A DNA stretch of 64,000 nucleotides from an uncultured virus (IMG/VR IMGVR_UViG_3300031994_003577). Taxonomy: Duplodnaviria; Heunggongvirae; Uroviricota; Caudoviricetes. Made by a program: the position numbers and the translations under genes. Numbering within the stretch: position 1 is the stretch's first letter; each line of letters starts with the position of its first letter. Shown piece after piece: positions 21,639-57,543 of this stretch. The stretch covers positions 1 through 64,000 of IMG/VR virus record IMGVR_UViG_3300031994_003577; one strand, written 5' to 3'. The notes under the pieces were generated by a model. The model searched no databases. It was not told where the DNA came from and saw nothing but the letters and a program-made list of their open reading frames with translations.

Positions 21639-21777
21639 ATTCTTTATTATATTTTTTTAAAACTTTACAACCACCGCAGCCATTTCTTTTTGCACCAGTA
21701 CAAAACCAACAACAATCTGTATCAAGCCAAAATATTTTAGGTGGTTCAGGACGTTGTTTTCTTCTCTTTTCTTTCAT
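21610..21777 (-). CDS. Small Cys-rich hypothetical protein
   Basis: MKEKRRKQRPEPPKIFWLDTDCCWFC...CGGC, 55 aa, coupled to the upstream stop. Confidence 0.5.
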   Translation of the reverse strand: MKEKRRKQRPEPPKIFWLDTDCCWFCTGAKRNGCGGCKVLKKYNKEYGNKKYEFK

Positions 21778-30463: not shown

Positions 30464-32851
30464 TTGTCAAGAATTATAGATATATCTGATACTTTAACCA
30501 CTCATCCTAGTGGTTACGATAGTTCAAATTCATCTTATTCAAGTGTAAGTGGTTCTTATCCAATTTCAAATGGATATACCGATGCGTCAAGTACTTCTTA
30601 TGCGTATATTACTTGTCATACGGGTTCTCAGGCGGAATCACATATTTCATATACTTTTAATGTTTCAGAAATTCCAGAAGAAGCCACGATTGATTCGGTT
30701 GCTTGTTCAGTTAAATCAAGGGTTAGTTCAACCAATTATTTAACCGCTTCTACTATTTAGTTATATAGCGGCTCTACTGCAAAAGGTTCTTCTACTTCTG
30801 CGGACTCTACTTCAGCAACCGCGCGCAGCATAAGTAATACCGGTTCCTGGACTCGCGCGGAAATTAGTAATATACAAGTGCGTTTAACTGGTAAAAGAGG
30901 CACATCACAAACTTCTCGTGCGGCGTATTTATATTTCTATGGCGCGACTCTTACTATAAATTATTCTGTAAATGGAATAGCTTATACAATTGGCGCGACA
31001 AGTAATGTAAGCGGTACAACCGTAGAGCCTTCCACCCAAGAAGTTATGGGAGGTGAAGATGCAACCATTACTATTTACACAGACGCAATAGATAATATAG
31101 CTGTTACTGATAATGATGTTGATGTTACTAATCAGTTGGAACAACATGCGGTACCTACAGGAGGCACAATTTCTTAGACCCCTGCTTCGTATACAACTAG
31201 TGGTAGCGTTAGTGGTACTCGTTATTAGTCTGCAATAGGCTATAGTGCAGAAAATCCATCAAGCTAGACGGGTAATGATTATTGTGGTAGTAGTGGTAGT
31301 ACGGCCACAATTTATTATCATTTTAATTTTGATGATATACCAGAAAATGCAACTATTGATTCTATGAGCGTGCGCGCCTGCGGCCACTTAGAAAGTACTT
31401 CTAATTCAAGTGAAGTTGCAGAACTCAATACCTACTATGGGACAACCGCTAAAGGAACTACAGTATCATACACCTCAACAAGTAATACGATTAAAGAAAT
31501 TTCTCCAGGTACTTGGACGGTTGCTCAACTTAAAGATGACGCGCGAGTAGGTTTTACAATTGGTTATTATGGTGGCCTCGTTGTTGGTATTACTTGGGAA
31601 GTTACTTATAGCGTTCCTTCATCCGGAGGAGACTATTATTATACATATACGTTAACTAATATAAGTGTTGACCATATAATTGTAATTAATGAGGCCGGTG
31701 CGTTTATACCACCTGAAGAAGACCCGCAATATACGTATTACCCAATTACAATTTCTTCTATTAATGCGACCACATCTCCCGCAAATGGGACAACACGAGT
31801 ACAAGAAGGAACGAATCAAGTAATTACGATTAGTCCTATCGACCCATAGTTAACGCTCGCGCTAGATAATGGAGTTGATATTACAAGTCAACTCGTTGGC
31901 AGCGCACCAGAAAATACATATACAGTTACTACTCAAGTAAGTGGCGCGTCTTATGGATTTAATTTAAATAGTTCTACAGGATATTATGTATCTACTAATA
32001 ATGGAGTTAATAAATCAGCTTCAGTCGCACGATTAAATTTAGATTTTGAAAGTGATTGTCTTGTAACTATTACGTATATAAATTATGCGGAAGAAGATTA
32101 TGACTATGGAATGTTTGGTAAATTAGACACTGAGGTTGCTACGGACGGATTAACTGCTGGAAGTGGTGGTTCAACGCCGTCAGATTCAACAAGTAATTAT
32201 CAAATTGCTAAGTGTAATAATAGTTCAAGTACATAGACTGTAACTTATTCAGTTCCCGCGGGAGAGCATTTTATTGATATTAAATACGGTAAAGATGATG
32301 CATCTAATAGTAATAATGATTCGCTTTAGTGGAAAGTTACTTCAGTTGAAGCGACAAGCGCGGGTGGAGATTATACTTATACTTTAAATAATATAAATTA
32401 GAAACATAGTTTAGTTTTTATTTTTGGTAATGTTAATTATTATTTTATTACTTCAAATGGAAATAGTTCAAAATTATATCCTGATGGGTAGGTTGTAAAA
32501 CTTGAGGGAGATTCATATCTTTTAAGAATAGTACCTAATGATGCTAATGCAACTGTGACACTAAAAGATAATAATGTTGATAGAACTTCGTTACTTGAAT
32601 ATGAAAGTGGAACAGATAAATATGGAAATACTGTTGTAAATTACATATATAAGTTAACAAATATTACTGCGGCGCACACGTTAGTTGTTGCAGTTGGCGG
32701 GAGTTAGCCGAAAATTTATATAAAAGAAAGTAATAGCTGGACTCAATATTCAAAAGTTTATAAAAAAATTAATGGTTCTTGGGTTGAATAGGATTCTTCT
32801 ACTTGGAGTGAATTATTTGATACAAGAATAAATTATAGAAAAATGGAGTAA
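30464..32851 (+). CDS. Putative virion/receptor-binding protein (~795 aa)
   Basis: Three track ORFs in one frame joined via TAG; repeated IPE(E/N)ATIDS module; KIYIKE..SW..YSKVYKKINGSW C-terminus. Confidence 0.72.
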
Positions 32852-37385: not shown

Positions 37386-37430
37386 AAGATGTGAGCAGCA
37401 AATATAAAAGGCGCAATTAAAAACATCTTG
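37386..37430 (+). promoter_or_regulatory. CAGCAA stem motif in the 5' leader of the TROVE-like gene
   Basis: AAGATGT-GAG-CAGCAA...ACATCTT-G, immediately before the AAAGGAG RBS. Confidence 0.6.
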
Positions 37431-37442
37431 AAAGGAGTTAAT

Positions 37443-38936
37443 ATGAATAAATTTATTGAATCAGCTAATGAATTGTCCTCCCGTAAGTTAACTGAAAATG
37501 GCGCGCTTGCTTATAATACTACTAATGGTGGAGCTTTGCTTGACCTTTTTGGTATTGTAGGTGCTATGCGTACCAGAACCGAAAAAGAAATTAGTGACGC
37601 TTTTGCAGAAGCTTTTAATGAAGATCGCGCATTGGCAATGCGACTTATGTTTTATACACGTAATGCGCGCGGTGGCCTTGGTGAACGTAGAACTTTTCGC
37701 ATTATGCTTAATTGGCTTTGCAATAATAATCCTACTCTTGCTATTGCTAATATTCCTAATGTAGTGGAATTTGGCAGATTTGATGATCTTTATGAGTATC
37801 TTGATACTCCGGCAGAAGCAGAAATGTGGAGTTGGATGTTTGCGCGACTTAATGACGATTATGAGAAGATGCTTGCTCATAAGCCGATTTCTCTTCTTGC
37901 AAAATGGATGAAGTCCATTAATACTGCTAGTGAAGAATCTCGTAAGCTCGCGCGCAGAACCATGAAGGGGCTTGGTTTTAAGTCTGAAAAGCAGTATCGT
38001 AAAGTGCTCGCGCGCATGCGTGAGTATCTTAATGTTACTGAACATCAGATGAGCGCGCAGGAATGGAATAAGATTAATTATTCTCAAGTTCCGGCTTATG
38101 CGATTAAGAACTATGGTTCTGCATTTGCAAAGCATGATTTTGATCGTTGGAATCAGTATCTTAATGCTCTTAAGAATAACGAAAAGGGTGTTAAGGTTAA
38201 TGCGAGTACATTGTATCCTTATGATCTTGTAGAAAAGATTTCTACAAATTCTGCCTGGAGCATAAGCTTTAAGTACGATGAATTGACTGAACAGCAGTGG
38301 AAGGCTTTGCCTAATTACATTGAAGACGGCGCGAATGTGCTTGTTATGGCAGACGTTAGTGGCTCTATGGCTGGGCGGCCAATGGCTACTTCGATTGGAC
38401 TTGCAAATTATTTTGCACAGCGTAATCATGGTGAGTTTGCGGGATTGTATCTTACTTTCACGCATAATCCGAAATATATTAAGGTAAAACCGTATGAAAC
38501 TCTTCAGTCCATGTGCGAGAAGGCTTTTACTGATGTTGGGTACAATACTAATCTTGATAAAGCTTTTGAGCTGGTATATAATACTGCGGTTCGTAATAAC
38601 GTTCCGGCAGAAGATATGCCCCGCGCGCTTGTTGTAATTTCAGATATGGAGATTGACTGTTATATGCGAGCCAATTCTAATCTTGATTTTGTAACTAAGT
38701 GGAAGCGCAAATTCCAAGAAGCTGGATATGAAATTCCGCAGCTCGTTTTTTGGAACGTGGAAGCACGTGCGAATACTTATATTGGTACTGCGCGCGAAGG
38801 AGTTAAATATCTTAGTGGTTCTTCTGCTTCAGTATTTCGTGATCTTATCAGTACATTGAATTGTAAGTCTGCATATGATGCTATGCTTACGGTGCTTATG
38901 AATCCGATGTATGATAAGGTTATTACTAAGGTGTAA
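37443..38936 (+). CDS. TROVE/Ro60-like helical plus vWA protein (DUF2828-like)
   Basis: TENGA, RNARGGLGER, GRFDDL, LAKWM, LYPYD, MIDAS DVSGSM, ISDME, FWN. Start set at the ATG after AAAGGAG. Confidence 0.75.
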   Translation: MNKFIESANELSSRKLTENGALAYNTTNGGALLDLFGIVGAMRTRTEKEISDAFAEAFNEDRALAMRLMFYTRNARGGLGERRTFRIMLNWLCNNNPTLAIANIPNVVEFGRFDDLYEYLDTPAEAEMWSWMFARLNDDYEKMLAHKPISLLAKWMKSINTASEESRKLARRTMKGLGFKSEKQYRKVLARMREYLNVTEHQMSAQEWNKINYSQVPAYAIKNYGSAFAKHDFDRWNQYLNALKNNEKGVKVNASTLYPYDLVEKISTNSAWSISFKYDELTEQQWKALPNYIEDGANVLVMADVSGSMAGRPMATSIGLANYFAQRNHGEFAGLYLTFTHNPKYIKVKPYETLQSMCEKAFTDVGYNTNLDKAFELVYNTAVRNNVPAEDMPRALVVISDMEIDCYMRANSNLDFVTKWKRKFQEAGYEIPQLVFWNVEARANTYIGTAREGVKYLSGSSASVFRDLISTLNCKSAYDAMLTVLMNPMYDKVITKV

Positions 38937-40010: not shown

Positions 40011-40087
40011 TGGGGAGTAGCCAAATTGGGAAGGCGCCGGTCTCTAAAATCGGTCATGTCTGGGTTCGAACCCCAGCTCCCCCGCCA
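40011..40087 (+). tRNA. tRNA-Sup(CTA), Gln-type amber-decoding tRNA
   Basis: Cloverleaf with anticodon arm CCGGT-CT CTA AA-ATCGG; TGGGG 5' end, GCCAA D-arm, G73 and encoded CCA resemble tRNA-Gln. Confidence 0.92.
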
Positions 40088-41605: not shown

Positions 41606-42121
41606 ATGAATCGTTGGATAATTGCTGATACACATTTTGGACATAAAAACGTAATTAAATATTGTAATCGTCCGTATTCTTCAGTAGAAGAAATGGATAA
41701 AATTTTAATTACGAATTGGAATAAAGAAGTCGCGCCGGATGATATAGTATATCATCTTGGCGATTTTGCTTTATCTGCTGATAAGGAGTATATTTCTTCT
41801 ATTGTCGCGTAGCTAAATGGAAGAATTGTACTTATTATGGGCAATCATGATTAGAAAACACATAAATGGTATTTAGATTGCGGTTTTGAAAATTCAACAC
41901 GAAAACCTATGATTGTAGACGATAATATTATACTTATGCACGAGCCGCCAAAAGAACATTATATTGTTCCAGAATTTTTCTATGTATTTGGTCATGTGCA
42001 TGAAAAAAAGTGTATCGCAGATGAATATAGTAATTGTAAATGTGTAAGTGTTGAAAGAATAGATTATAAACCGCTTAATTTCAAAAAGATACTTTTTGAA
42101 AGAAATGCACATTGTGAATAA
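41606..42121 (+). CDS. Calcineurin-like metallophosphoesterase
   Basis: DTHFGH, HLGD, GNHD, HEP, GHVH; joined via two TAGs. Confidence 0.88.
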
Positions 42122-43386: not shown

Positions 43387-43590
43387 ATGGACGAGTACGA
43401 ACAGAAACTTCAATGGTATCATAAGTATATTGAAGATCATGAAAATGATACCGCGCGCCGTGTGCGTGAGTATTGCAGCTATCTGAAGCGCTGGTTTAGT
43501 AATGGAAGATGCGATGGTGCGCCGGATTATGCGACTCGATACTTATGGAAACGTACTCCTATGTCGTATAATCAATACTTTATTGAGTAA
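43387..43590 (+). CDS. Hypothetical protein
   Basis: Own promoter and AAAGGA RBS. Confidence 0.55.
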   Translation: MDEYEQKLQWYHKYIEDHENDTARRVREYCSYLKRWFSNGRCDGAPDYATRYLWKRTPMSYNQYFIE

Positions 43591-43609
43591 AATATATTAA
43601 TCTTAAATT

Positions 43610-43638
43610 TTGATTTTGAATAAAATTTTTGATATAAT
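43610..43638 (+). promoter_or_regulatory. Promoter upstream of a long non-coding region
   Basis: TTGATT-N17-TATAAT. Confidence 0.75.
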
Positions 43639-43649
43639 ATATATAGAAA

Positions 43650-44375
43650 GTTTGAGAGAACTTCAAAAACTCACGTCCTTTTGTGAGTTGGGACGTTAAA
43701 TATTAACTACAGCGTTAACACGGATTTAGCACTTAAACTACCACTGGCCAAGGCATTTAAGAAACGATAATCAGAGATGGTTATCCTCTTTCCAAACTTG
43801 TAAGTCCTGGATATGTGGCATGAATGAGCGGAAAACGCTATACCAAAAGAAGCGAAGTAAAGTGCATTTTTCTTGGTTCCAGTAGTGCCAGTTTAACTGG
43901 GTATCCTGAAGTTAAAGCGAGCCTGAAGTCGAGGGTCTCCGCCAAGAACCGCCGTTCCGGACAGCGGGATATAAATACTTAAAGGCCGGCGTGAAGCAAT
44001 CCTTCGACATGGGAAAGATTTAATATCGCTCTCTATTAGTTATGCGCGAGAGACTTGGACAGCCATAAAGGTATTCCACATAAGACAAGTTGTGGTTGGT
44101 ATCGACATAGGACGCGCAACTGCGCTAATAGACCGCAAGTTCGTAATAGTCTATTATGTGCTGAAAAACGAGATGGGAGGGAATTTCTATTGCGCCCTCG
44201 CTTAGATGGATTAGCTATCCTAACACTAAGAATCGTGGAATAAATGTTACCACACTCGTCATACAGCGTAGGCATAATGAGCAGCAATGCGGTAATACCG
44301 TGCGCACGGTAGCAAAGTTACCCTGGCTCCCCAGTAAGATCTGACACGAGGTCTGGGTTATCAAAATCTCAAGTA
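43650..44375 (+). ncRNA. Candidate large structured ncRNA (~720 nt)
   Basis: Promoter-driven, GC-richer than flanking intergenic DNA, many complementary segments, no RBS-supported ORF, ends at tRNA-Asp. Confidence 0.5.
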
Positions 44376-44452: not shown

Positions 44453-44579
44453 AAGATACGTACAGCAAATGTATTTCTTTGATTTAGGGAATCCGTTGTC
44501 GTTGGTTCGAGTCCGACTCTCCCCGTCATGGGGAGATAGCTCAGTTGGTAGAGCGCGAATAGAAAAAAAACGTATCTTG
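44453..44579 (+). ncRNA. YrlA/Y-RNA-like circularly permuted tRNA mimic
   Basis: Terminal stem AAGATACG/CGTATCTT encloses, in order, a T-arm (GTTGG-TTCGAGT-CCGAC), a loop-closed acceptor stem (TCTCCCC-GTCAT-GGGGAGA) and a D-arm (GCTC-AGTTGGTA-GAGC). Confidence 0.75.
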
Positions 44580-44586
44580 TAATTAT

Positions 44587-44729: not shown

Positions 44730-44803
44730 CCGCTATTCGTATAACAGTAGTACTCCAGCCTTCCAAGCTGGCGGCACGAGGGCGGCACTCGTATGGCGGT
44801 CCA
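44730..44803 (+). tRNA. tRNA-Gly(TCC), atypical D/T loops
   Basis: CCAGC-CTTCCAA-GCTGG, U73, CCA; T-loop GGCGGCA and no D-loop GG. Confidence 0.72.
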
Positions 44804-44930
44804 GTTTCGGACAATGCAGTTTCATTGCTGTCGGTGTTTTAAGATTTGACCGAAACTCAAATCTTAATTTTGACTTTTCTCAAAATTTGTGGTATAATAT
44901 ATATACAGAATGAGAAAGGAACGAAATTCA

Positions 44931-45503
44931 ATGTATAAACATCTGTACGATTGCTTTAAACATTGGTATCATGGTGGCGGAATTTTTTTCTACAGTGATC
45001 CGCATTTCGGTGATGAAGAAATGAAGCAAATTCGCAAGAATTATGTTAGTGATGAAGAGCAAGTTGCGCGCATCCGCAGTTTGATCGGTAAAAACGATAC
45101 GCTTGTAATTCTTGGCGATGTTGGTGATAAGGAATGGCTTAAAAAGCTTCGTGGTTATAAAGTTCTCATTCTCGGTAATCATGATGCGGGCGCCACGACG
45201 TATGAAGGGTACGTTGATGAAATCTATGAGGGCGCGCTGATGATTAGTGATAAACTAATTCTTTCGCACGAACCGATTGATTTTCCTTACGCACTCAATA
45301 TTCATGGTCATTGCCATGCGTTGCCTTGTCAGTATGATGAAAAGCACTTCAATATGTGCGCTGAAGCAATTGATTATTTGCCTATTTCATTAAAAGAAAT
45401 CGTTGAAGCGGGTTGGCTTAAAACGGTTCAATCCATTCATCGTGAAACGATTGACGAAGCAACAGAACGCAAGAAAAAGCGTTTGAAAAAGTTTTCTCAT
45501 TAA
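44931..45503 (+). CDS. Calcineurin-like metallophosphoesterase
   Basis: SDPHFG, LGD, GNHD, SHEP, HGHCH; own promoter at 44870-44898. Confidence 0.88.
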   Translation: MYKHLYDCFKHWYHGGGIFFYSDPHFGDEEMKQIRKNYVSDEEQVARIRSLIGKNDTLVILGDVGDKEWLKKLRGYKVLILGNHDAGATTYEGYVDEIYEGALMISDKLILSHEPIDFPYALNIHGHCHALPCQYDEKHFNMCAEAIDYLPISLKEIVEAGWLKTVQSIHRETIDEATERKKKRLKKFSH

Positions 45504-45574
45504 TGTAGTAGTGAAATCCAAGCCGGTTTATTCATGGGTTTGTCCGCACGTGAAAGCCGTGGCCTCCTTTCTTT

Positions 45575-45664
45575 GACTTTGTGGCAGAGTGGTTGATTGC
45601 GGCGTCCTGCTAAGGCGTTGAGGGTGCAAACCCTCCGGTGGTTCGAATCCACCCGAAGTCGCCA
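45575..45664 (+). tRNA. tRNA-Ser(GCT)
   Basis: GCGTC-CTGCTAA-GGCGT, long variable arm, G73, CCA. Confidence 0.88.
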
Positions 45665-45667
45665 TAT

Positions 45668-45742
45668 GGTCCCTTCGTCTAATGGCAAGGACGCAAGATT
45701 TTCATTCTTGCAATATGGGTTCAACTCCCGTAGGGGCTACCA
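45668..45742 (+). tRNA. tRNA-Glu(TTC)
   Basis: CAAGA-TTTTCAT-TCTTG, CCA. Confidence 0.88.
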
Positions 45743-45779
45743 GCCAATATGGCAAAGTAATGTATAAATGATTTAATTT

Positions 45780-45868
45780 AAGACGCATACAGCAATTTTA
45801 TTTGAAGATGGATACATAATAATTCTGTAAAAATTATTCTTTGGGTTCAATTCCCACAATGCGTCTTG
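45780..45868 (+). ncRNA. CAGCAA-stem RNA carrying a GTA anticodon-like arm and a T-arm
   Basis: AAGACGCAT/ATGCGTCTT stem; AATAATT-CTGTAAA-AATTATT; TGGG-TTCAATT-CCCA. Confidence 0.6.
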
Positions 45869-45874
45869 AAATTT

Positions 45875-46036
45875 GCCGGAATGGCTCAACGGTAGAGCAG
45901 GCGCCTTCTCAAATTAGTGTAATGATCGCACACTGGGACCGATGGTTCGTTCACAGCCTCGGAAGAGTTGGTTTGATTCCAACATTTGGGTCCAGTAAGC
46001 GTCAGGTTGGGGGTCCGATTCCCTCTTCCGGCACCA
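45875..46036 (+). tRNA. tRNA-Thr(TGT) split by an 87-nt insert (exons 45875-45907 and 45995-46036)
   Basis: Removing 45908-45994 gives a 75-nt canonical cloverleaf: GCCGGAA/TTCCGGC acceptor, GGCGC-CTTGTAA-GCGTC anticodon arm, A73-CCA. Confidence 0.85.
45908..45994 (+). ncRNA. tRNA-like element nested inside tRNA-Thr
   Basis: Acceptor CTCAAAT/ATTTGGG, D-arm GTGT/GCAC, T-arm GTTGG-TTTGATT-CCAAC, U73-CCA; enlarged non-canonical anticodon arm. Confidence 0.75.
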
Positions 46037-46037
46037 G

Positions 46038-46515
46038 TTTCATACATTCCATATCGACGGTCGATTGTGTAAGTAAAAAGGAAGTTCGATTCTTCTTCCG
46101 TCTAAGTTCGACTCAAGGACGGGCGCGGTGCAGGGTTTACACAATGTATGAATTACCTGTACGGGCAGTAATCCGTTACCAGTATTACCCCATTGGTAAG
46201 TTGGTAGTTCTTTGGTATAAGATAATAAGCCAAAGCGTGCCGGCGCGAAAGTTCGGTAATCATAGCTAAGATTATATTAATTATGGTGGTAAATTATTAA
46301 TGAATAAGATTACTTGCACACTGCGTATGCTATGAAGCGCAGAACCTAAAGCAGTCCTAAAGAGAAGAGTAATCTTACATTTATTCGTAGAGAGATTTTA
46401 TCGTATCTGCGCGAGGTGTGGAAGGGCCGATTAAAGGCGTTTAGGAGTGGCTGATAGACCAACTTAAAGTGTCGAAGTATTCAGAAGTAGCAACGATTGA
46501 TAATTTCTCTTTGCG
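46038..46515 (+). ncRNA. Candidate structured ncRNA region
   Basis: Multiple long stems (TTCATACATT/AATGTATGAA, AAGATTACT/AGTAATCTT, TCCTAAA/TTTAGGA) and two TTCGA T-loop hairpins. Confidence 0.4.
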
Positions 46516-47413: not shown

Positions 47414-47545
47414 ATATATAGAAAGTGAAAAGAAGATAAGACACAGTCACCTCCTTTCTTTTCAACAAGTTATCTTCATGCTTTCTAACGGCTTAACGGG
47501 ATGCCGACTAAAATCCCGAAATTGGAAATCTCTTAATCATAGATT

Positions 47546-47574
47546 TTGATTTTTTCTTAAATCTTTGATATAAT
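47546..47574 (+). promoter_or_regulatory. Promoter upstream of a long non-coding region
   Basis: TTGATT-N17-TATAAT. Confidence 0.72.
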
Positions 47575-48478: not shown

Positions 48479-48556
48479 GTATAAGGGTCGAGGATAGAAA
48501 TGGCGTCTATTGACTATATGTGCGATGTGGGATAGCCGACCCACCGACCCTTACTT

Positions 48557-51810: not shown

Positions 51811-51890
51811 AATCTCTACTCTTTTTAATTTGCAAAATTTTAAAAATTATGATATAATATTTATAGAGAATGAAAGTAGGAGTGATATAT

Positions 51891-52694
51891 ATGTTAAAAG
51901 AGAAAACAGTCAAGAGTATGCTGGAACATTTTGCTGAAGCGCGCCAATATTTTGAAAGCAATCAAATTGTTGGTTTGTTTCTTTAGGGTTCACAGAACTA
52001 TGGTCTTGACAATGAAAATTCTGATGTAGATACTAAACTTATTGTTGTTCCTTCTTTCAGAGACATCGCGCTTAATCGTAAGCCAGTAAGCACTACTCAC
52101 GTGCGCGCAAATAACGAGCATATTGACTGGAAAGATGTTCGGTTGTACATGGAGACTTTTAGAAAGCAGAATCTGAACTTTCTCGAAATCTTATTTACTG
52201 ATTATTGTATCGTAAATCCTCTTTATAAAGCGCAGTGGTCGCGTTTAGTTGAAGCGCGCGAGCAAATTGCTCGTATGAATGAATGGCGCGCGGTTAAGTC
52301 TATGAAAGGTGTAGCGATGGAAAAGTATCATGCGATGGAGCATGAGTATCCAAGTAAAGTAGAAGTACTTGCTAAGTTTGGATACGATCCGAAGCAGCTT
52401 CATCATTTACTTAGAGTAGAAGAGTATTTGGAGCGCTATATTAATGGCGAACCTTATAAAGATTGTTTAAAGCCACGAGATCCTGGATATCTATTAGATA
52501 TTAAAATTGGTGTTATGGGACTCGAAGAAGCGCGAAGAGTTGCTGATGCTTCAATGGAGCATGTAATCAAACTCGCCGATGACTTTTGTGCAATAAGAAC
52601 TGATGACGAAAATATGGAAGGGCGCGCTTTACTTGAAAGTGTGCAATATGAAATCATGAAAATTGCTGTGAAAATGGAGTTAAACAATGACTAA
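51891..52694 (+). CDS. Pol-beta superfamily nucleotidyltransferase
   Basis: GLFL(TAG)GSQNYGLD..NSDVD, KQNLNFLEILF, YDPKQLHHLLR. Confidence 0.85.
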
Positions 52695-53457
52695 ATATTT
52701 TTGCGTAGCAGATGTACATAGCTTCTATGATGAAATGATTTATGCACTTAATGAAGCAGGGTACGATAAAAATAATCCTGACCATATCTTTGTGAGTTGT
52801 GGTGATATGTTCGATCGTGGCTCACAATCGCGCGAAGTGCTTGAATTTCTTAACTCTATTCCTAATGAGAAAAAGATTCTTATTTGTGGAAACCACGAAA
52901 TTCTTATGCACCAAATGATCTATGGTAGCGATTATCCTCGGACAATAGATATAAAAAATGGCACTTGGAAGACTGCTTGTGATATTACGCAGGCTGATAG
53001 AGCGGAAGTAATAGAAAAAATGCGGAAAAATAAAGAGTGGCAGGAGTATTATAGTAATACTAAATATTATGCCACCATTGGAAATTATATTATTACTCAT
53101 GCTTGGATTCCTTGTGAAATCGCTTATCATCGGGATGTTTATGGAAAAGTGTATACTTCCTATTCGATTATTCCTATTGAAGATTGGGATAAATATGAGT
53201 ATGAATATGACTGGGAGAAAACTTTTACTTGGGCAAATGGTATGGAACTTTGGTCAAAAGGCATATGCATCGAAGGAAAAACAATAATTTGCGGTCATTG
53301 GAACGTGAGTTGGGGACATAAGAATATACACAAGACTTGTAAGACAGAATTTAAAGAAGATGCTATTCATGAACCATTTATTGATGAAGGTATTGTCGCG
53401 CTTGATGCTTGCACTGTTGTGAGTCATAAAGTAAATTGTTTTGTTTTTGAGGTGTAA
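52687..53457 (+). CDS. Calcineurin-like metallophosphoesterase
   Basis: DVH, GDMFDRG, GNHE, THA, CGH. Confidence 0.88.
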   Translation: MTKYFCVADVHSFYDEMIYALNEAGYDKNNPDHIFVSCGDMFDRGSQSREVLEFLNSIPNEKKILICGNHEILMHQMIYGSDYPRTIDIKNGTWKTACDITQADRAEVIEKMRKNKEWQEYYSNTKYYATIGNYIITHAWIPCEIAYHRDVYGKVYTSYSIIPIEDWDKYEYEYDWEKTFTWANGMELWSKGICIEGKTIICGHWNVSWGHKNIHKTCKTEFKEDAIHEPFIDEGIVALDACTVVSHKVNCFVFEV

Positions 53458-53458
53458 G

Positions 53459-53797
53459 ATGGATGGAGTAATTATTCTTGATAAAACAACTGCTATGATT
53501 GTGCCAGATTGGGGTGAAATTATAGCTGGCGCTGGTATGGGAATTTTTCTTATTTTTGCATGGGTTGGCATTATTTGCTTAATTGAAGGTGTAAATAAGA
53601 AAAGCACTATAATAATTTTTGGAATATGTGTATTAGGTTTTTTAATGGGAATTTCTTACTTTTTTCTTCCAAAAGTACCAGATATTACATATAAAGTTAT
53701 TGTAGAAGATAATGTAAATATGAATGATTTTTTTAATAAATATGAATTAATTAAACAAGAAGGTTTGATTTATACCGTTAAGTTGAAAGGAGATTAA
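53459..53797 (+). CDS. Two-TM membrane protein
   Basis: Two hydrophobic segments. Confidence 0.55.
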   Translation: MDGVIILDKTTAMIVPDWGEIIAGAGMGIFLIFAWVGIICLIEGVNKKSTIIIFGICVLGFLMGISYFFLPKVPDITYKVIVEDNVNMNDFFNKYELIKQEGLIYTVKLKGD

Positions 53798-53799
53798 TT

Positions 53800-55053
53800 A
53801 TGCTTAATAAGAATGGACAGCGTGAACTTGTGTATGTAGTTCTTATTGATGAAATCATGCCTATTGAGGGTTATGATCGTGTAGAACTCGCGCGCGTTGG
53901 TGGATGGCATGTAATCGTTCAGAAGGAACAGTTTAAGGTTGGTGATCCGGCGATTTACTTTGAGGTTGATAGCCGTGTTCCGTCCGATCGTGAATGCTTT
54001 GCTTTCCTCGCAAAGCGCAAGTATAAGATTAAGACTATTAAGATGTGCGGCGTAGTGTCGCAGGGTTTGCTTATGCACGCTGAAGATTTCGGTTGGACTA
54101 ATGAAATTGATGCGGATGGACATTGCTTTATTTGGGAAGGAACTGACCATTATGCACAACACTGGCCTGATAATGAATCTCGCTTCCTTACTGAAAAGCT
54201 TGGCGTAACCCATATTGAAGATGAAGATAACAAGTCTTCTGCACCGGTTGATAAGTACAAGGCAATGGCGCAACGTCGTCCGAATATTTTCAAGAAGAAG
54301 TGGGCGCGCTGGTTCATGCGGCGTGAATGGGGACGTAAGTTGATGTTTGCACTCTTTGGGCGCAAGAAGAAGAAGTCTGAAACTTCGTTCCCGACTAAGT
54401 TCCCGTTCGTTAAACGAACTGACGAAGAAAGAGTCGAGAATATGCCTTGGGTTCTTAAGGATAAGACCCCCTATATTGTAACTCAAAAGTGCGACGGTTC
54501 TTCTGCTACCTATATTCTCGCGCGCACTCATAATCCGTTCAAGCCGTTTGAATTTTATGTGTGCTCGCGCAATGTGCGTATGCTTGACGAGAAGCAGCAA
54601 TGCTTTTATGATGAAAATGTGTACTGGGAAATGGCAAAGAAGTATGACATTGAAGCTAAGCTTAAGAGCTATTTAAAGGATAACCGCCATCTTACTTATG
54701 TATGCTGGCAGGGCGAGATTTGCGGTCCGAATATTCAGAAGAACCCGCATCATCTTAAGGAAAATCATCTTTTCTGCTTTCATATGATTGATAGCTCTAA
54801 GGGCAAGTATGATATGCGTGAAGCAGAATTAATTTGGCATAGTTATGGTATGGAAATTGTGCCCATCGTAGATACTTCTTATCGTATGCCGGACGATTTT
54901 GACGAGTTCAAGAAGAGCGCGGATGGTTTCTATAGCACAGAAGTAACCGAAGGAACTCATAATTGTCCGCGTGAGGGATATGTATATTATAAGACTACTG
55001 ACCCGAACTTTAGCTTTAAGAACGTAAGTACTTCATATCTTTTGTCGCGTTAA
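53800..55053 (+). CDS. ATP-dependent RNA ligase (Rnl2-like/DRB0094-type, N-terminal OB domain)
   Basis: IMPIEGYDRVELA..GGW N-domain, KRTDEERVEN, motif I TQKCDGSS, QGEI.GP.IQKN, REGYVY, FSFKNVS. Confidence 0.88.
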   Translation: MLNKNGQRELVYVVLIDEIMPIEGYDRVELARVGGWHVIVQKEQFKVGDPAIYFEVDSRVPSDRECFAFLAKRKYKIKTIKMCGVVSQGLLMHAEDFGWTNEIDADGHCFIWEGTDHYAQHWPDNESRFLTEKLGVTHIEDEDNKSSAPVDKYKAMAQRRPNIFKKKWARWFMRREWGRKLMFALFGRKKKKSETSFPTKFPFVKRTDEERVENMPWVLKDKTPYIVTQKCDGSSATYILARTHNPFKPFEFYVCSRNVRMLDEKQQCFYDENVYWEMAKKYDIEAKLKSYLKDNRHLTYVCWQGEICGPNIQKNPHHLKENHLFCFHMIDSSKGKYDMREAELIWHSYGMEIVPIVDTSYRMPDDFDEFKKSADGFYSTEVTEGTHNCPREGYVYYKTTDPNFSFKNVSTSYLLSR

Positions 55054-55123
55054 GCACGAATAAGTTGTATTTAATATCTAATATTTTTACTTTTATTTGA
55101 CTAAGTTATAGGAGGAAAAGTAA

Positions 55124-55300
55124 ATGGCAGATGAGACCACTCTTAATAATGAAACTACAGAAGAAGAAGTAACTCCAAGAGACATTCTCGTTCAATATAT
55201 CAACGACGTTTCTTCTGGTAAAAAGGTATTAAATCCAACTATTTTATTGCAATTAATTGATGATTTAAGCGATGATGATTCAAGTGAAAGTGATACTTAA
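55124..55300 (+). CDS. Small acidic protein
   Basis: AGGAGG RBS, 58 aa, followed by a terminator. Confidence 0.55.
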   Translation: MADETTLNNETTEEEVTPRDILVQYINDVSSGKKVLNPTILLQLIDDLSDDDSSESDT

Positions 55301-55305
55301 GAATT

Positions 55306-55330
55306 AAAGCCCTTAGGGGCTTTATTTTTT
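55306..55330 (+). terminator. Intrinsic terminator
   Basis: TAAAGCCC-TTAG-GGGCTTTA plus T run. Confidence 0.7.
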
Positions 55331-55390
55331 GACTTTTTTTAAATTTTATGATATAATTATTATATAAAATAATAGGAGAAAATGATGTAA

Positions 55391-55690
55391 ATGTATACTG
55401 CGCGCGACGTAAAAAAATTAACTGATGAATGTAAAAAGTTATGGATTAAATTGGCCGTAGAAAAAGATAGCAAGTTAATAGATAAATATATCGATAAGTG
55501 TGCGAAAAATGGTGATTACAGTTTAACAGTAGAATATCCTGCTTTATATACAACTGCTGAAAAGGGCCGTAAAGAATTAATTGATAAATATCGAGAAAAT
55601 GGTTTTGAAGTAGAAGAAGATCATTATATTAGATATGACAATGGTTATATTCATGGTTTAATTATAAGTTGGGGTAAAGAAAATGAGTAA
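55391..55690 (+). CDS. Hypothetical protein
   Basis: Promoter and AGGAG RBS; ends IISW. Confidence 0.6.
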   Translation: MYTARDVKKLTDECKKLWIKLAVEKDSKLIDKYIDKCAKNGDYSLTVEYPALYTTAEKGRKELIDKYRENGFEVEEDHYIRYDNGYIHGLIISWGKENE

Positions 55691-55871
55691 AAAATATTGG
55701 TTTTGTAAGAAGTGCGGGCATTTTGAAGAAATTGGTAAAGAACGTGCGGATGTAATTGTTGGACTTTGTCCTAAATGTTTTTATTATATGAGCGCGCAAG
55801 ATTGGGATGATGAAGATGTTAAGAAAGCTGAAAAGGCTCGCGCGCTTCGTATCATTAAAAGAACTAAATAA
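55683..55871 (+). CDS. Zn-ribbon small protein
   Basis: CKKC...CPKC. Confidence 0.55.
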   Translation: MSKKYWFCKKCGHFEEIGKERADVIVGLCPKCFYYMSAQDWDDEDVKKAEKARALRIIKRTK

Positions 55872-55932
55872 ATTTGAAATTTTTCTAAATTTATGATATA
55901 ATAATTATAGAAAATAAAGGAGATCAAAAGTA

Positions 55933-56136
55933 ATGTATCATTATAAAGTTACTTTTTATGATGAACTTTCTGAAAATAAAAAAATTATCACCGATACTGG
56001 GATTACTAGTGGTGGTAATGCTGGAGAAGCAATTAATAAGTTAATTGAATTTTATGGAAAAAAGCAGATAATTTCAATTGACGAATTTTATGAACTAGAA
56101 GAAATTTTAACGAAAACCGACTTGTCAGAAATTTAA
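55933..56136 (+). CDS. Hypothetical protein
   Basis: Promoter and AAGGAG RBS. Confidence 0.55.
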   Translation: MYHYKVTFYDELSENKKIITDTGITSGGNAGEAINKLIEFYGKKQIISIDEFYELEEILTKTDLSEI

Positions 56137-56150
56137 GAAAGGAACGTTTT

Positions 56151-56645
56151 ATGGTCGCAAAAAGCTTTCAAGGTCTTAAACAGTTGACCGATCCTTATAA
56201 AGAAAATGGTAAAGAATATGTTACCGTTGAGACAAAAACTGGAAAAACTCGTAAGGTTCGTTGGTATAGTACCGATGAATATTGTCGAATGTATCCAGAT
56301 GCTGATAAAAATGCTATTGCACGTGAATATGATTCTTATTGGCATTCTCTTGAATATGTTCTTATGGGTTCTTCAGGTTTTGTTTGGGTCTTTGAAGGCG
56401 ACCCTACGCCCTACTTGGAAGAGCTGTACATGAGTAGGCATATCTGGTATAATACCACTTTCGGATGGTTCATTAAGGGCGAAGAAGATGAATCTATCGT
56501 TGAAGCCGCGCGCGAATGGTTCGTTGTACATAAGTTGGAATGGAAAGAAATTAGTATTGATGATAATTCGTTGCGCGCGGATGCTAAAAAAATCATAGAC
56601 GATAAATGTAATGGAAAGGTAGCCAGAAAATATGTTGCTGATTGA
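56151..56645 (+). CDS. Hypothetical protein
   Basis: AAAGGA RBS, 164 aa. Confidence 0.6.
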   Translation: MVAKSFQGLKQLTDPYKENGKEYVTVETKTGKTRKVRWYSTDEYCRMYPDADKNAIAREYDSYWHSLEYVLMGSSGFVWVFEGDPTPYLEELYMSRHIWYNTTFGWFIKGEEDESIVEAAREWFVVHKLEWKEISIDDNSLRADAKKIIDDKCNGKVARKYVAD

Positions 56646-57543
56646 TGAAAAAACGCCCATCTTTGAAATGCTTGTTGGCGTAGCCGGTTCTGGAAAGTCT
56701 ACTTATGCTCTTGCGAGAAAAGCAGAACTTGAAGATATTACTGGTTTGAAATGTGAAATTGTTTCTTCTGATGCCATTCGTGGAGAGCTTTGGGGCGATG
56801 AAAGCGATCAACGAGATCCTTCAAAAGTTTTTGACGTGATGCTCGCGCGCACTCGTAAGTATCTTTCTGAAGGGTATCACGTAATTTATGATGCTTGTAA
56901 TGTTGGTGAAAAGTATCGTAAGCATACTCTTCATAATATTTCTAGTTTTGACTGCTTCAAGCGCTGTACTATTTTTATTGTTTCACCGGAAGAGTGCATT
57001 AAAAGGCAGGAGTACAGAGAAAGAAAAGTGCCAGACCATGTAATTTATCGGCAGATTTCTCAGTTTCAGGTTCCTTTTTGGTCTGAAGGTTGGGATGATA
57101 TTATTATTTATGGAGAACCTTATTCTGATGGTCAAATTGCAGAAAAGTTAAGCACTTTACGAAACTTTGACCAGAAAAATCCCCATCATACGCTGCCGCT
57201 TGATGAACATTTAATCAAAGCAAGAAATTATGCTGTTGAAAAAAAGTACTCTGAAATTGTGATGTGCGCGGCACTGTGCCACGATATTGGAAAGATCTTT
57301 ACTCAGACTATTGATGATGATGGTATTGCTCATTATTATGGTCATGAAAATGTTAGTGCTTATTATTATTTTCTTCTGACTGGCGATCTTTTTAATGGTC
57401 TAGAAATTATTTGGTTAATTAATCATCATATGGACTTTTTTAAAGGAGAACGGTATCTTGAAAAAGTTCATAGGAGTATTGAAAACGAAGAACTTTGGGA
57501 AATGCTTAATCAGCTGCATGAATGTGATTTGCAAGCCCATTAA
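56632..57543 (+). CDS. Polynucleotide kinase (AAA_33 P-loop) fused to an HD phosphohydrolase
   Basis: GVAGSGKST, SSDAIR, IYDACN; H..L.EH, CHDIGK, YYGHENVSA, D.QAH. Confidence 0.85.
   Translation: MLLIDEKTPIFEMLVGVAGSGKSTYALARKAELEDITGLKCEIVSSDAIRGELWGDESDQRDPSKVFDVMLARTRKYLSEGYHVIYDACNVGEKYRKHTLHNISSFDCFKRCTIFIVSPEECIKRQEYRERKVPDHVIYRQISQFQVPFWSEGWDDIIIYGEPYSDGQIAEKLSTLRNFDQKNPHHTLPLDEHLIKARNYAVEKKYSEIVMCAALCHDIGKIFTQTIDDDGIAHYYGHENVSAYYYFLLTGDLFNGLEIIWLINHHMDFFKGERYLEKVHRSIENEELWEMLNQLHECDLQAH

What the first reader, a model, noticed from the sequence alone, without database searches (positions are those of the whole stretch)
45875..46036. tRNA nested in a tRNA: tRNA-Thr(TGT) split in the anticodon by a CCA-ending tRNA-like intron
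Seen in sequence: 45875-45907 plus 45995-46036 join into a canonical 75-nt tRNA-Thr (G1-C72, C2-G71, loop CT-TGT-AA, A73-CCA). The 87-nt insert between anticodon positions 34 and 35 starts exactly at its own acceptor stem (CTCAAAT/ATTTGGG), has D- and T-arms and ends exactly in TCCA; only its anticodon arm is aberrant. It is too short for a group I/II intron and I see no bulge-helix-bulge motif. Inference: host tRNA-maturation nucleases (RNase P at the 5' side, a 3' endonuclease after CCA) could excise the insert. That would leave a 3'-OH exon and a 5'-P exon, the substrate type of the ATP-dependent RNA ligase at 53800-55053, giving a splicing route built from a tRNA mimic. No other Thr tRNA was found in the window. 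From memory, something similar may have been noted in Lak megaphages; this is unverified.
Basis: partly seen in the sequence, partly recalled or inferred. Interest (0 to 1): 0.92.

Follow-up and report, generated by a model that had tools for sequence, protein, structure and literature searches.

The report
tRNA-shaped intron inside phage tRNA-Thr
A rumen phage's only threonine tRNA(UGU) gene is split in its anticodon by an insert shaped like a small tRNA that starts at its own first base and ends in CCA, which suggests, without yet proving, that ordinary tRNA-trimming enzymes plus an RNA ligase splice it.

Summary
45875-45907 and 45995-46036 form a canonical tRNA-Thr(UGU). The 87 nt between them (45908-45994) score as a tRNA on their own (Rfam 30.6 bits, cut-off 29), begin at acceptor base +1 and end in U-CCA.

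The same layout occurs in four sequence variants from one phage lineage (DnaE 55% identical between its two branches). In all four:
- the insert lies between U34 and G35 and ends in UCCA;
- its acceptor and T stems pair in 48 of 48 cells, with compensatory changes;
- its middle part is free to vary (72 to 117 nt in total).

The outer tRNA is also kept: 10 of 21 pairs show two-sided changes and one cell is unpaired. It is the only UGU isoacceptor found in each record.

No group I core, ribozyme, bulge-helix-bulge motif, EndA, RNase Z or RtcB gene was found.

Splicing itself is not shown. Metatranscriptome contigs hold only the unspliced form. The RNA ligase link has no statistical support (2 of 2 against 6 of 13 comparison phages).

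Best reading (0.4): a protein-spliced intron whose ends are set by tRNA end-processing, RNase P at the 5' side.

Lak megaphage tRNA introns (Devoto 2019) are the closest known. This scan has already noted Lak-type and CPR nested tRNAs on other DNA, but not this leaderless, CCA-ended form.

The parts
45875..45907 (+). 5' exon of tRNA-Thr(UGU): acceptor 5' strand, D arm, anticodon stem 5' strand, C32 U33 U34
   Evidence: Rfam tRNA alignment. Matches uninterrupted tRNA-Thr(TGT) genes up to ...CCTT.
45908..45994 (+). 87-nt tRNA-shaped intron. Acceptor 5' strand 45908-45914; D arm 45917-45931; non-conserved middle 45933-45966; T arm 45967-45983; acceptor 3' strand 45984-45990; U73 at 45991; CCA 45992-45994
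   Evidence: RF00005 30.6 bits on 45908-45991 when scanned alone. ARAGORN cloverleaf. Stems kept with compensatory changes in four variants.
45995..46036 (+). 3' exon of tRNA-Thr(UGU): G35 U36 A37 A38, anticodon stem 3' strand, variable loop, T arm, acceptor 3' strand, A73, CCA
   Evidence: Rfam alignment. Identical continuation GTAAGCGTCAGGT in intron-less homologues.
53800..55053 (+). ATP-dependent RNA ligase, N-terminal OB domain plus nucleotidyltransferase (NgrRnl/DraRnl type). Candidate sealing enzyme (inferred)
   Evidence: Pfam PF21189 and PF09414; PDB 5cot Naegleria RNA ligase E 5.8e-23; phrog_968; TIGR02306 below cut-off. Present in G001, G002, G003 and G004.
56632..57543 (+). P-loop polynucleotide-kinase-like domain fused to an HD phosphohydrolase domain. 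Candidate end-healing enzyme (inferred)
   Evidence: Pfam AAA_33 and HD; phrog_505 polynucleotide kinase; bacterial Pnkp kinase region. The G004 homologue lies about 730 nt downstream of that phage's nested tRNA.
52687..53457 (+). Calcineurin-like metallophosphoesterase of the repair cassette (inferred role in end healing)
   Evidence: Pfam Metallophos; phrog_246 and phrog_8238; weak match to the Pnkp phosphatase region.
51870..52694 (+). Nucleotidyltransferase of the repair cassette (read with one TAG as a sense codon)
   Evidence: phrog_388 nucleotidyltransferase, E 3.7e-21. No Pfam hit.
44910..45503 (+). Small metallophosphoesterase just upstream of the Ser-Glu-Thr tRNA block, syntenic in the relative L035/L036. 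Role unknown
   Evidence: Pfam Metallophos; phrog_547. 74% identical homologue in the same position in L035/L036.

Best explanation
This is a working tRNA-Thr(UGU) gene interrupted between U34 and G35 by a non-self-splicing intron that mimics the 'top half' of a tRNA: a 7-bp acceptor stem, a 5-bp T stem with a 7-nt loop, a D arm, U73 and CCA.

Proposed route:
1. The primary transcript folds as two nested cloverleaves.
2. Host RNase P cuts 5' of the intron's base +1, leaving U34 with a 3'-OH.
3. A second endonuclease cuts just after the intron's CCA, freeing G35. It could be an RNase Z/BN-type enzyme of the kind that cuts after CCA, or an unidentified phage nuclease.
4. The two halves, still held together by the outer acceptor and anticodon stems, are sealed by the phage's ATP-dependent RNA ligase. 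The neighbouring kinase and phosphoesterases would heal the ends first if needed.

Products would be mature tRNA-Thr(UGU) and a free CCA-ended tRNA-like RNA.

Shown: the anatomy, its conservation, and selection on both the outer and the inner fold.
Inferred: every enzymatic step, and that splicing happens at all.

My odds: the insert is removed at the RNA level, about 0.65. RNase P sets the 5' boundary if it is spliced, about 0.8. The whole route as stated, about 0.4.
For: 1. The boundary rule is conserved in 4 of 4 variants. These are W (this window), L035/L036, L042 (a complete 166.7-kb genome with terminal repeats) and L107. The insert starts at the first base of a 7-bp acceptor stem, is preceded by U34 and ends in U-CCA followed by G35. 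U34|G35 is the only placement common to all four. Empty-site homologues such as L076 and L151 fix the junction.

2. Only the part recognised by tRNA end-processing enzymes is kept. Acceptor plus T stems pair in 48 of 48 cells. Five of 7 acceptor pairs and 4 of 5 T-stem pairs show two-sided changes. The middle differs in length and sequence, giving inserts of 72, 87, 116 and 117 nt.

3. CCA is kept in the insert even where it is optional. Only 15 of 27 (G004) and 8 of 21 (G005) ordinary tRNA genes encode CCA, and the outer tRNA of L107 lacks it.

4. The outer tRNA is under selection. Across its 21 pairs and four variants, 11 pairs vary, 10 with two-sided changes, and one cell is A.C. W against L035 alone gives 13 unchanged, 8 compensatory and 0 broken.

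5. It is the only tRNA-Thr(UGU) found. G001 (95% complete) has no second Thr gene: its 19 RF00005 hits mirror the window's 19. G004 (complete) has Thr GGU, CGU and this UGU. ACA makes up 276 of 888 Thr codons in 22 long ORFs.

6. U at -1 is the usual leader base in this phage's array (15 of 17 tRNAs).

7. The nested double cloverleaf lies within 2.2 to 3.4 kcal/mol of the minimum free energy fold, and for L035 the minimum fold has that topology.

8. Self-splicing and archaeal routes are excluded.

9. A ligase with healing enzymes is present in G001, G002, G003 and G004.

10. Precedent for a cut after CCA: T. maritima tRNase Z (passage read in PMC3161902).
Against: - No spliced molecule was seen. 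In 2 of 2 metatranscriptome runs laid, the contigs cross the locus unspliced and no joint at 45907/45995 was reported. These are contigs, which drop rare forms, and mature tRNAs are poorly captured, so this is weak.
- No enzyme is known here for the cut after CCA. The four phage records have no metallo-beta-lactamase (RNase Z-type) gene (0 of 4).
- The nearest deposited phages by DnaE are SPbeta-like Bacillus phages at 37%. If the host is a Bacillota, its RNase Z may be blocked by CCA (recalled from B. subtilis work, not checked here).
- The ligase link is not specific. PF09414 occurs in 6 of 13 comparison phages that are at least 90% complete and carry related but uninterrupted or differently interrupted tRNA-Thr genes.
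- The closest solved ligase (NgrRnl) is known, from recall, for sealing nicks in duplexes rather than in loops.
- The kinase and phosphoesterases next to the nested tRNA in G004 fit a cyclic-phosphate route just as well.
- The relative G004 also has ARAGORN-called 47- to 49-nt inserts without a tRNA shape in other tRNAs (not verified). If these are real, tRNA mimicry is not the only way such inserts are handled.
- Only four sequence variants from one phage lineage are known.
Confidence: 0.4

Rival explanations
1. The insert is spliced, but by a different enzyme set. A dedicated, so far unrecognised phage or host endoribonuclease cuts both junctions of the nearly invariant internal loop (YUU on one side, UCCAGUAA on the other), leaving 2',3'-cyclic phosphate and 5'-OH. 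The phage kinase-HD protein and metallophosphoesterases heal the ends and the ligase seals them, as in T4 Pnkp/Rnl1 anticodon-loop repair or fungal and plant tRNA splicing. The tRNA shape would serve as a handle or have another use.
For: A complete heal-and-seal cassette is present: kinase plus HD, two to three metallophosphoesterases, a nucleotidyltransferase and the ligase. In G004 the kinase and a phosphoesterase homologue lie directly downstream of the nested tRNA. The 8-nt 3' junction UCCAGUAA is identical in 4 of 4 variants. No enzyme for a cut after CCA is evident.
Against: It does not explain why the insert must start exactly at acceptor +1 and end exactly at CCA, nor why only the acceptor/T/D top half is conserved. 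No candidate nuclease family was found by Pfam, PHROGs or NCBIfam among the ORFs scanned. EndA is absent.
Confidence: 0.22
2. The insert is not spliced. The useful product is the inner CCA-ended tRNA-like RNA (a decoy, a Y-RNA-like partner or another non-coding RNA), released by RNase P and 3' trimming. The outer tRNA-Thr is a disrupted shell, or yields only tRNA halves. Alternatively the insert is a small mobile DNA cassette that targets the anticodon loop.
For: Only the unspliced form is seen in RNA-run contigs. The phage makes other tRNA mimics: a YrlA-like RNA at 44462-44586 and a Ro-like 'RNA-binding protein'. In Lak phages such introns are present or absent between near-identical genomes (text of PMC6784885). 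The scan's earlier notes on CPR bacteria describe nested tRNAs read as cassettes and not as introns (unchecked).
Against: The outer cloverleaf has stayed intact across a lineage whose DnaE is only 55% identical: 10 of 21 pairs have two-sided changes and one cell is non-standard. Thr identity features G1-C72, C2-G71, G35 and U36 are kept in all four (the identity set is recalled). No other UGU isoacceptor is present. Unlike the CPR cases, the inner RNA cannot replace the outer, since its anticodon arm is not conserved and lacks U33. No empty allele at the same genomic site was found.
Confidence: 0.2
3. Both are ordinary decoding tRNAs in a nested operon, so the inner one is a real tRNA with its own anticodon.
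For: The inner sequence passes the Rfam tRNA cut-off (30.6 against 29 bits). ARAGORN at default settings calls the L035 insert tRNA-Leu(aag).
Against: The anticodon region is a 20-nt loop or an 8-bp bulged stem in W, a 4-bp hairpin with a 5-nt loop in L035, and two unrelated hairpins in L042 and L107. There is no U33 and no shared anticodon: ARAGORN gives Pro, Leu, Val and Lys for the four.
Confidence: 0.03
4. Assembly chimera or chance resemblance.
For: None found.
Against: Six independent records hold subfamily A and two more hold subfamily B. Single contigs in DNA and RNA runs cover the whole locus. Shuffle and slide controls are clean.
Confidence: 0.01

Closest known systems
'Enigmatic' tRNA introns of Lak megaphages (Devoto et al. 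2019, Nat Microbiol, PMC6784885; I read main-text passages and Table S6; Fig. 4 not visible)
   Same: A phage tRNA gene, including tRNA-Thr(TGT), is split in the anticodon loop by a short non-group-I insert. The 3' part of the insert is a tRNA-like module (acceptor stem plus T arm), and Rfam calls a tRNA inside the Lak Thr intron. A Lak-type example from a record estimated at 18% of its genome (99 kb) is in my own loci (L061). No mechanism is published in the library searched.
   Different: Lak introns carry a 5' leader of about 25-30 nt (small hairpin plus A-rich linker) before the tRNA-like part. They sit one to three bases further 3' in the loop, do not end in CCA (Table S6 sequences end ..agca or ..agcta), and vary in presence between near-identical genomes. 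Here there is no leader: the insert starts at acceptor +1, sits at 34/35 and ends in UCCA. The phage is a 120- to 170-kb lineage at about 34% GC, not a 540-kb, 26% GC megaphage.
Group I introns in bacterial and phage tRNA anticodon loops, e.g. tRNA-Leu(UAA)
   Same: The insertion site is in the anticodon loop. The relative G004 has a real one (Rfam Intron_gpI, 58.3 bits) in its tRNA-Leu(UAA).
   Different: The insert is 72-117 nt and has no group I core. There is no Rfam intron or ribozyme hit at E up to 10. It cannot self-splice by that chemistry.
Archaeal and eukaryal tRNA introns cut by the splicing endonuclease at a bulge-helix-bulge motif and joined by RtcB or Trl1
   Same: A protein-spliced tRNA intron in or near the anticodon loop. 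The exon halves stay paired and are then ligated.
   Different: The two junctions face each other across one 3 x 8-nt internal loop, not two 3-nt bulges set 4 bp apart (fold). There is no EndA (0 of 4 records) and no RtcB (0 of 4). The proposed ends are 3'-OH and 5'-P, not cyclic phosphate and 5'-OH.
tRNA-like processing signals: mitochondrial 'tRNA punctuation' and MALAT1 mascRNA, cut by RNase P and RNase Z (recalled, not read here)
   Same: A tRNA-shaped element inside a longer transcript defines both cut sites through the universal tRNA end-processing enzymes.
   Different: In those cases the flanks are not rejoined. Here the flanks are the two halves of another tRNA and would have to be ligated.
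Phage T4 Pnkp/Rnl1 repair of tRNA nicked in the anticodon loop (recalled)
   Same: A phage-encoded kinase/phosphatase and an ATP-dependent ligase act on a tRNA broken in the anticodon loop. The same kinds of genes are present here.
   Different: T4 repairs damage done by a host nuclease to a normal tRNA. Here the break would be a programmed step in maturation. The ligase is of the NgrRnl/DraRnl type, not Rnl1.
Nested 'Russian-doll' tRNA genes of CPR/Patescibacteria noted earlier in this scan (e1-4439378, e1-2054736 and others; AI notes, unchecked)
   Same: One tRNA-shaped gene lies inside the anticodon loop of another.
   Different: There the inner gene is a complete working tRNA with the same anticodon, carried on a stalk, and is read as a replacement cassette. 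Here there is no stalk, the inner RNA cannot decode, and the outer gene is the one kept by selection.

Membership tests
Lak-type phage tRNA introns (Devoto 2019) | Short non-self-splicing insert in the anticodon loop of a phage tRNA gene | tested here: met
   87-nt insert in the loop. No intron or ribozyme family hit.
Lak-type phage tRNA introns (Devoto 2019) | Insert holds a tRNA-like module with acceptor stem and T arm at its 3' end | tested here: met
   RF00005 30.6 bits. 48 of 48 stem cells paired in four variants.
Lak-type phage tRNA introns (Devoto 2019) | 5' leader (small hairpin plus A-rich linker) between the 5' exon and the tRNA-like module | tested here: not met
   The insert begins at acceptor +1 in 4 of 4 variants. 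Lak sequences in Table S6 and L061 have the leader.
Lak-type phage tRNA introns (Devoto 2019) | Insert ends at or near the discriminator, without CCA | tested here: not met
   It ends in UCCA in 4 of 4 variants. The Table S6 introns end ..agca or ..agcta.
Group I intron | Conserved catalytic core (P3-P9), detectable with Rfam RF00028 | tested here: not met
   No hit in the window at gathering score or at E up to 10 on the locus. The same model finds the tRNA-Leu intron of G004.
Bulge-helix-bulge tRNA intron (archaeal/eukaryal) | Two 3-nt bulges separated by a 4-bp helix at the splice sites | tested here: not met
   In the nested fold the junctions lie in one 3 x 8-nt internal loop. I judged this by inspection, not with a dedicated motif search.
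Bulge-helix-bulge tRNA intron (archaeal/eukaryal) | Splicing endonuclease (PF01974) and RtcB-type ligase available | tested here: not met
   0 of 4 phage records have PF01974 and 0 of 4 have PF01139. The host was not examined.
Genuine decoding tRNA (inner element) | 5-bp anticodon stem, 7-nt loop with U33, conserved anticodon | tested here: not met
   20-nt loop in W. Different, non-homologous middles and four different ARAGORN 'anticodons'.
tRNA-Thr(UGU) (outer gene) | Canonical cloverleaf after removal of the insert, with anticodon UGU, G1-C72 and C2-G71 (identity set recalled) | tested here: met
   47.2 bits over the full model. Exons match intron-less Thr(TGT) genes. Features are present in 4 of 4 variants.
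RNase P substrate (inner element) | 12-bp acceptor/T-stem stack, D/T elbow, 3' NCCA, single-stranded leader with U at -1 (recalled determinants) | tested here: met
   The sequence features are present in 4 of 4 variants. Cleavage itself cannot be tested with these tools.
NgrRnl/DraRnl-type (Rnl5) ATP-dependent RNA ligase | N-terminal OB domain followed by the nucleotidyltransferase domain | tested here: met
   PF21189 on residues 11-92 and PF09414 on residues 224-407. 5cot E 5.8e-23. TIGR02306 at 96 bits, below its equivalog cut-off of 151.

The most novel reading that the evidence does not exclude
This is a third kind of enzymatic tRNA splicing. The intron is a tRNA mimic whose two ends are cut by the universal tRNA end-maturation machinery: RNase P at its +1 base and an endonuclease acting right after its CCA. 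That gives 3'-OH and 5'-phosphate exon ends, which an ATP-dependent RNA ligase joins directly, with no splicing endonuclease and no end healing. The excised intron is released as a ready-made CCA-ended tRNA-like RNA with a function of its own, for example a decoy for tRNA-targeting host defences or a timer that ties tRNA-Thr(UGU) supply to expression of the phage ligase.
Probability: 0.25. Interest if true: 0.92.

Novelty: new variant of a known kind. Interest (0 to 1): 0.78.

Why it matters
Bacteria and their phages are thought to have only self-splicing (group I) tRNA introns. The short Lak phage tRNA introns reported in 2019 have remained unexplained in the literature I could search.

This locus is the cleanest form of that puzzle. 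Both intron ends coincide exactly with the mature ends of a tRNA-like fold, in four diverged variants, while the host tRNA stays under selection. That turns an 'enigmatic' observation into a precise hypothesis that can be tested at the bench: cut at 45907|45908 by RNase P, cut at 45994|45995 after CCA, then ligation.

If true, it would add a new splicing pathway built from housekeeping tRNA enzymes and a phage repair ligase. It would also give a natural role to phage RNA-repair cassettes beyond damage repair.

It has a practical side as well. Standard tRNA finders miss or mislabel these genes. ARAGORN misses it by default and calls Arg or Trp with introns allowed, so phage tRNA repertoires in recoded gut and rumen phages are under-counted.

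Tried and rejected
- Arg(UCU) reading. ARAGORN's call is rejected because intron-less homologues read TT|GTAA and the body carries G1-C72 and C2-G71. A one-base shift of both cuts would give UCU in W and L035, which explains the miscall.
- Self-cleaving or self-splicing RNA. No Rfam intron or ribozyme hit.
- Phage-encoded RNase P RNA (a lead from an earlier scan note). None in the window.
- Phage-encoded EndA, RNase Z-type or RtcB. 0 of 4 records each.
- Spliced form in public RNA data. One call laid on 2 RNA and 2 DNA runs. Only unspliced contigs appeared and no joint at the intron. These are contigs only, so this is not decisive. Raw reads were not available to me.
- More members by pattern scans:
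  - Insert 3' part and 3' exon found only the near-identical 121-kb record.
  - The junction pattern found 3 of 3 known loci.
  - The metagenome scan gave 9 loci: 5 of the two known types and 4 chance matches.
  - The T-loop-to-junction pattern gave 7 viral loci (3 known, 4 not nested) and 83 genome-contig loci, of which 80 were examined. Six were flagged by my script, and all six are ordinary tRNAs followed by GTAA.
  - Subfamily B (L042, L107) was missed by these patterns. I found it only by re-reading the D-arm scan.
- GenBank phage collection. No DNA match to either subfamily.
- Ligase co-occurrence as support. 2 of 2 near-complete intron-bearing genomes against 6 of 13 comparison genomes, so no support.
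- Descent of the insert from a particular phage tRNA. No convincing parent in global alignments.
- Listing all tRNAs of 20 related records to spot long ones. The output was cut to the best 150 rows, so it was of no use.
- Minimum free energy z-scores of the insert or the whole precursor are unremarkable (-0.26 and -0.77). Thermodynamic stability alone does not mark the element.
- Earlier findings looked up by sequence: none.
Full report
**What is there**

The window is the first 64 kb of a 73.5-kb IMG/VR virus record at about 33% GC. It carries a tRNA array at 40.0-49.0 kb. Default ARAGORN finds 17 tRNAs and no Thr.

The Rfam tRNA model aligns end to end to 45875-46033 at 47.2 bits (cut-off 29), with a single 90-nt insertion in the anticodon loop. 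The hit survives a whole-window scan at gathering score.

Scanned alone, the insert hits the tRNA model at 30.6 bits (E 3.2e-5). Model positions 1-71 lie on 45908-45991 and CCA follows at 45992-45994. Its anticodon region is a 20-nt loop, or alternatively an 8-bp bulged stem. It cannot decode.

**Which tRNA, and where exactly is it split**

ARAGORN with introns allowed reports Arg(TCT) with an 87-nt intron, shifted by one base. Comparison with uninterrupted genes decides against that.

- Of 30 viral loci that hold the 17-mer ending the 5' exon, 13 continue directly with GTAAGC(G/A)TCAGGT, i.e. tRNA-Thr(TGT). One is the near-identical copy of this locus, one is an Arg(TCT), one is another tRNA and 14 are not tRNAs.
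- Of 118 rows with the same D arm, 105 have an intact anticodon arm and 72 of those read TGT.

The split is therefore U34|G35 and the anticodon is UGU.

**Relatives**

- *Near-identical copies.* A 121-kb record (G001, 95% complete) and a 4.8-kb metagenome contig carry the identical locus.
- *Second variant of subfamily A.* The neighbouring phosphoesterase is 74% identical in two records, L035 and L036. Three records in all (L160, L162, L163) hold a second version: the same outer tRNA-Thr(TGT), and a 72-nt insert running CCAGGGT...ACCCTGG-T-CCA, again between T34 and G35. The intron-less genes L076 and L151 read ACTGATTTGTAATCAGT, which fixes that junction without ambiguity.
- *Subfamily B.* Re-reading the D-arm scan gave two further variants: L042, in a complete 166.7-kb genome with terminal repeats (G004), and L107 (G005, a fragment). 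Both have a 116/117-nt insert with a 7-bp acceptor stem, a D arm, a large unrelated middle of two hairpins, a T arm, then T-CCA followed by GTAA.
- *Same lineage.* G004 is a distant relative of the window's phage: DnaE 55%, GyrB 57% and RNA ligase 48% identical.

U34|G35 is the only placement of the junction that fits all four variants.

**Conservation**

*Inner element.* Acceptor and T stems, placed at fixed distances from the two insert ends, form standard pairs in 48 of 48 cells. The count falls to 11-23 of 48 when the 3' partner is slid by 1-3 bases, and no shuffle reaches 12 of 12 pairs (0 of 20,000 per insert). Five of 7 acceptor pairs and 4 of 5 T-stem pairs show two-sided changes. U-1, U8, U73 and CCA are invariant. 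The middle is not conserved between subfamilies.

*CCA.* The insert keeps CCA although only 15 of 27 (G004) and 8 of 21 (G005) ordinary tRNA genes of subfamily-B phages encode it, and the outer tRNA of L107 lacks it.

*Outer tRNA.* Of 21 pairs, 11 vary, 10 of them with two-sided changes, and one cell (A.C in L042) is non-standard. W against L035 alone gives 13 unchanged, 8 compensatory and 0 broken. The outer gene has therefore stayed under selection for its cloverleaf while carrying the insert.

*Only UGU isoacceptor.* G001's 19 Rfam tRNA hits are the counterparts of the window's 19 and none lies elsewhere. G002 has 28 ARAGORN tRNAs and no other Thr. G004 has GGU, CGU and this UGU, and so does the fragment G005. 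ACA is 276 of 888 Thr codons in 22 long ORFs, and the tail-fibre-like ORFs are very rich in Thr.

**What it is not**

- Not a group I intron or known ribozyme. There is no Rfam hit, although the same library finds a group I intron in tRNA-Leu(UAA) of G004.
- Not a bulge-helix-bulge intron. The junctions face each other across one 3 x 8-nt internal loop. The phage records have no EndA or RtcB (0 of 4 each).
- Not a decoding tRNA.
- Not a chimera.
- Not a CPR-type replacement cassette. The inner RNA cannot replace the outer, and the outer is the gene that is kept.

**How it most likely works**

*Shown.* The transcript can fold as two nested cloverleaves. That fold is within 2.2-3.4 kcal/mol of the minimum free energy fold, and for L035 the minimum fold has this topology. 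The conserved part of the insert is the acceptor/T-stem stack, the D/T elbow and NCCA. The base before it is U, as for 15 of 17 tRNAs of this array.

*Inferred.* These are the features that bacterial RNase P recognises (recalled). RNase P should therefore cut at 45907|45908, leaving U34 with a 3'-OH. A second cut at 45994|45995, right after CCA, is needed. T. maritima tRNase Z cuts after CCA (passage read in PMC3161902). No such enzyme is identified here, and the phage has no RNase Z-type gene. The halves, held together by the outer stems, would then be sealed.

*Candidate sealing and healing enzymes.* The phage encodes an NgrRnl/DraRnl-type ATP-dependent RNA ligase. Beside it lie a nucleotidyltransferase, a metallophosphoesterase and a kinase-HD protein.

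*Limits of this evidence.* That cassette would serve a cyclic-phosphate route equally well. Ligase presence (2 of 2 near-complete intron-bearing genomes) does not differ from the comparison phages (6 of 13 that are at least 90% complete).

**RNA evidence**

Two sheep-gut metatranscriptome runs hold the locus. Their contigs cross it unspliced and no joint at the intron was reported. These are contigs, which drop rare forms, and the runs may contain DNA. This neither shows nor excludes splicing.

**Comparison with what is known**

Devoto et al. 2019 reported tRNA introns in Lak megaphages, including a tRNA-Thr(TGT) intron that Rfam reads as a tRNA, and called them enigmatic. Later Lak and recoding papers add nothing on mechanism (passages read). 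Four full-text searches found no paper on tRNA-like introns or on RNase P-dependent splicing in phages.

The Lak introns differ from this one. They have a 5' hairpin-plus-linker leader, no terminal CCA and a site further 3' in the loop (Table S6; L061). The present form is leaderless and CCA-ended, in a different phage lineage whose nearest deposited relatives by DnaE are SPbeta-like Bacillus phages at 37%. I file it as a new variant of that known kind.

Earlier notes of this scan describe Lak-type introns and CPR nested tRNAs on other DNA. None matches this sequence.

**Limits**

- There are only four variants, all from one lineage.
- The host is unknown.
- Enzyme specificities that I cite without a call number are recalled.
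- I could not see Fig. 4 of Devoto et al., so the exact Lak boundaries rest on the Table S6 note.

Noticed in passing
window 40011-40087 and ORFs such as 28079-30451, 30464-32851, 21777-22835: TAG appears to be read as a sense codon. There are 50 in-frame TAG in 22 long ORFs, with 10-12 each in tail-fibre-like ORFs. A suppressor tRNA(CUA) heads the tRNA array.
   Followed up: partly
window 44462-44586 (+) and 37428-38936 (+): A Y-RNA-like (YrlA) hit at 39 bits (cut-off 69, E 1.2e-7 locally), with well-matched tRNA-like T and D arms, lies between tRNA-Asp and tRNA-Pro. A DUF2828/DUF7788/vWA protein (phrog_850, 'RNA-binding protein') lies upstream of the array. G004 has two YrlA-like hits as well. 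This may be a phage Ro/Y-RNA-like pair.
   Followed up: partly
window 48483-48552 (+): skipping-rope RNA (RF02924), 41.4 bits, above its gathering score of 36.7, lies between tRNA-Ser(UGA) and tRNA-Leu(UAG).
   Followed up: no
window 44730-44804 (+): tRNA-Gly(UCC) with an unusual T loop (GGCGGCA). Infernal finds it at 39 bits, ARAGORN misses it, and a spurious ORF overlaps it.
   Followed up: partly
window 46037-46170 (+); L035:3986-4112: A structured element directly after the nested tRNA carries a T-arm-like hairpin at 46080 (GGAAG TTCGATT CTTCT). Sequence blocks are conserved in the relative. It has no Rfam family and its function is unknown.
   Followed up: partly
window 45792-45863 (+): A weak, AT-rich tRNA-like sequence (RF00005 at 23 bits, below cut-off) lies between tRNA-Glu and the nested tRNA. 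A variant copy appears in an RNA-run contig.
   Followed up: no
window 51870-57543 (+): RNA-repair cassette: nucleotidyltransferase, metallophosphoesterase, a 118-aa ORF, an NgrRnl/DraRnl-type RNA ligase, small ORFs and a kinase-HD protein. Two further phrog_547 phosphoesterases (41606-42121, 44910-45503) sit inside the tRNA array.
   Followed up: partly
G004:C1:46062-46636, 44759-45034, 43553-43675, 47434-47562 (loci L263, L261-L269): The complete relative G004 carries a ROOL RNA (323 bits) and a group I intron (58.3 bits) in tRNA-Leu(UAA). ARAGORN also-nt and 47-nt inserts without a tRNA shape in a second tRNA-Thr(GGU) and a second tRNA-Tyr.
   Followed up: partly
loci L043, L096, L077, L121, L065, L061, L150: tRNA-Thr(UGU) genes of this D-arm family are often interrupted in the anticodon loop by other inserts. 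These include long ORF-bearing inserts, a Lak-type hairpin plus mini-tRNA (L061) and an unclassified insert (L150). In all, 13 of 118 rows lack an intact anticodon arm.
   Followed up: partly
window 45574-46143: A bovine-gut DNA run holds a related strain in which this whole block (tRNA-Ser, tRNA-Glu, the nested tRNA-Thr and part of the downstream element) is replaced by 101 other letters.
   Followed up: no
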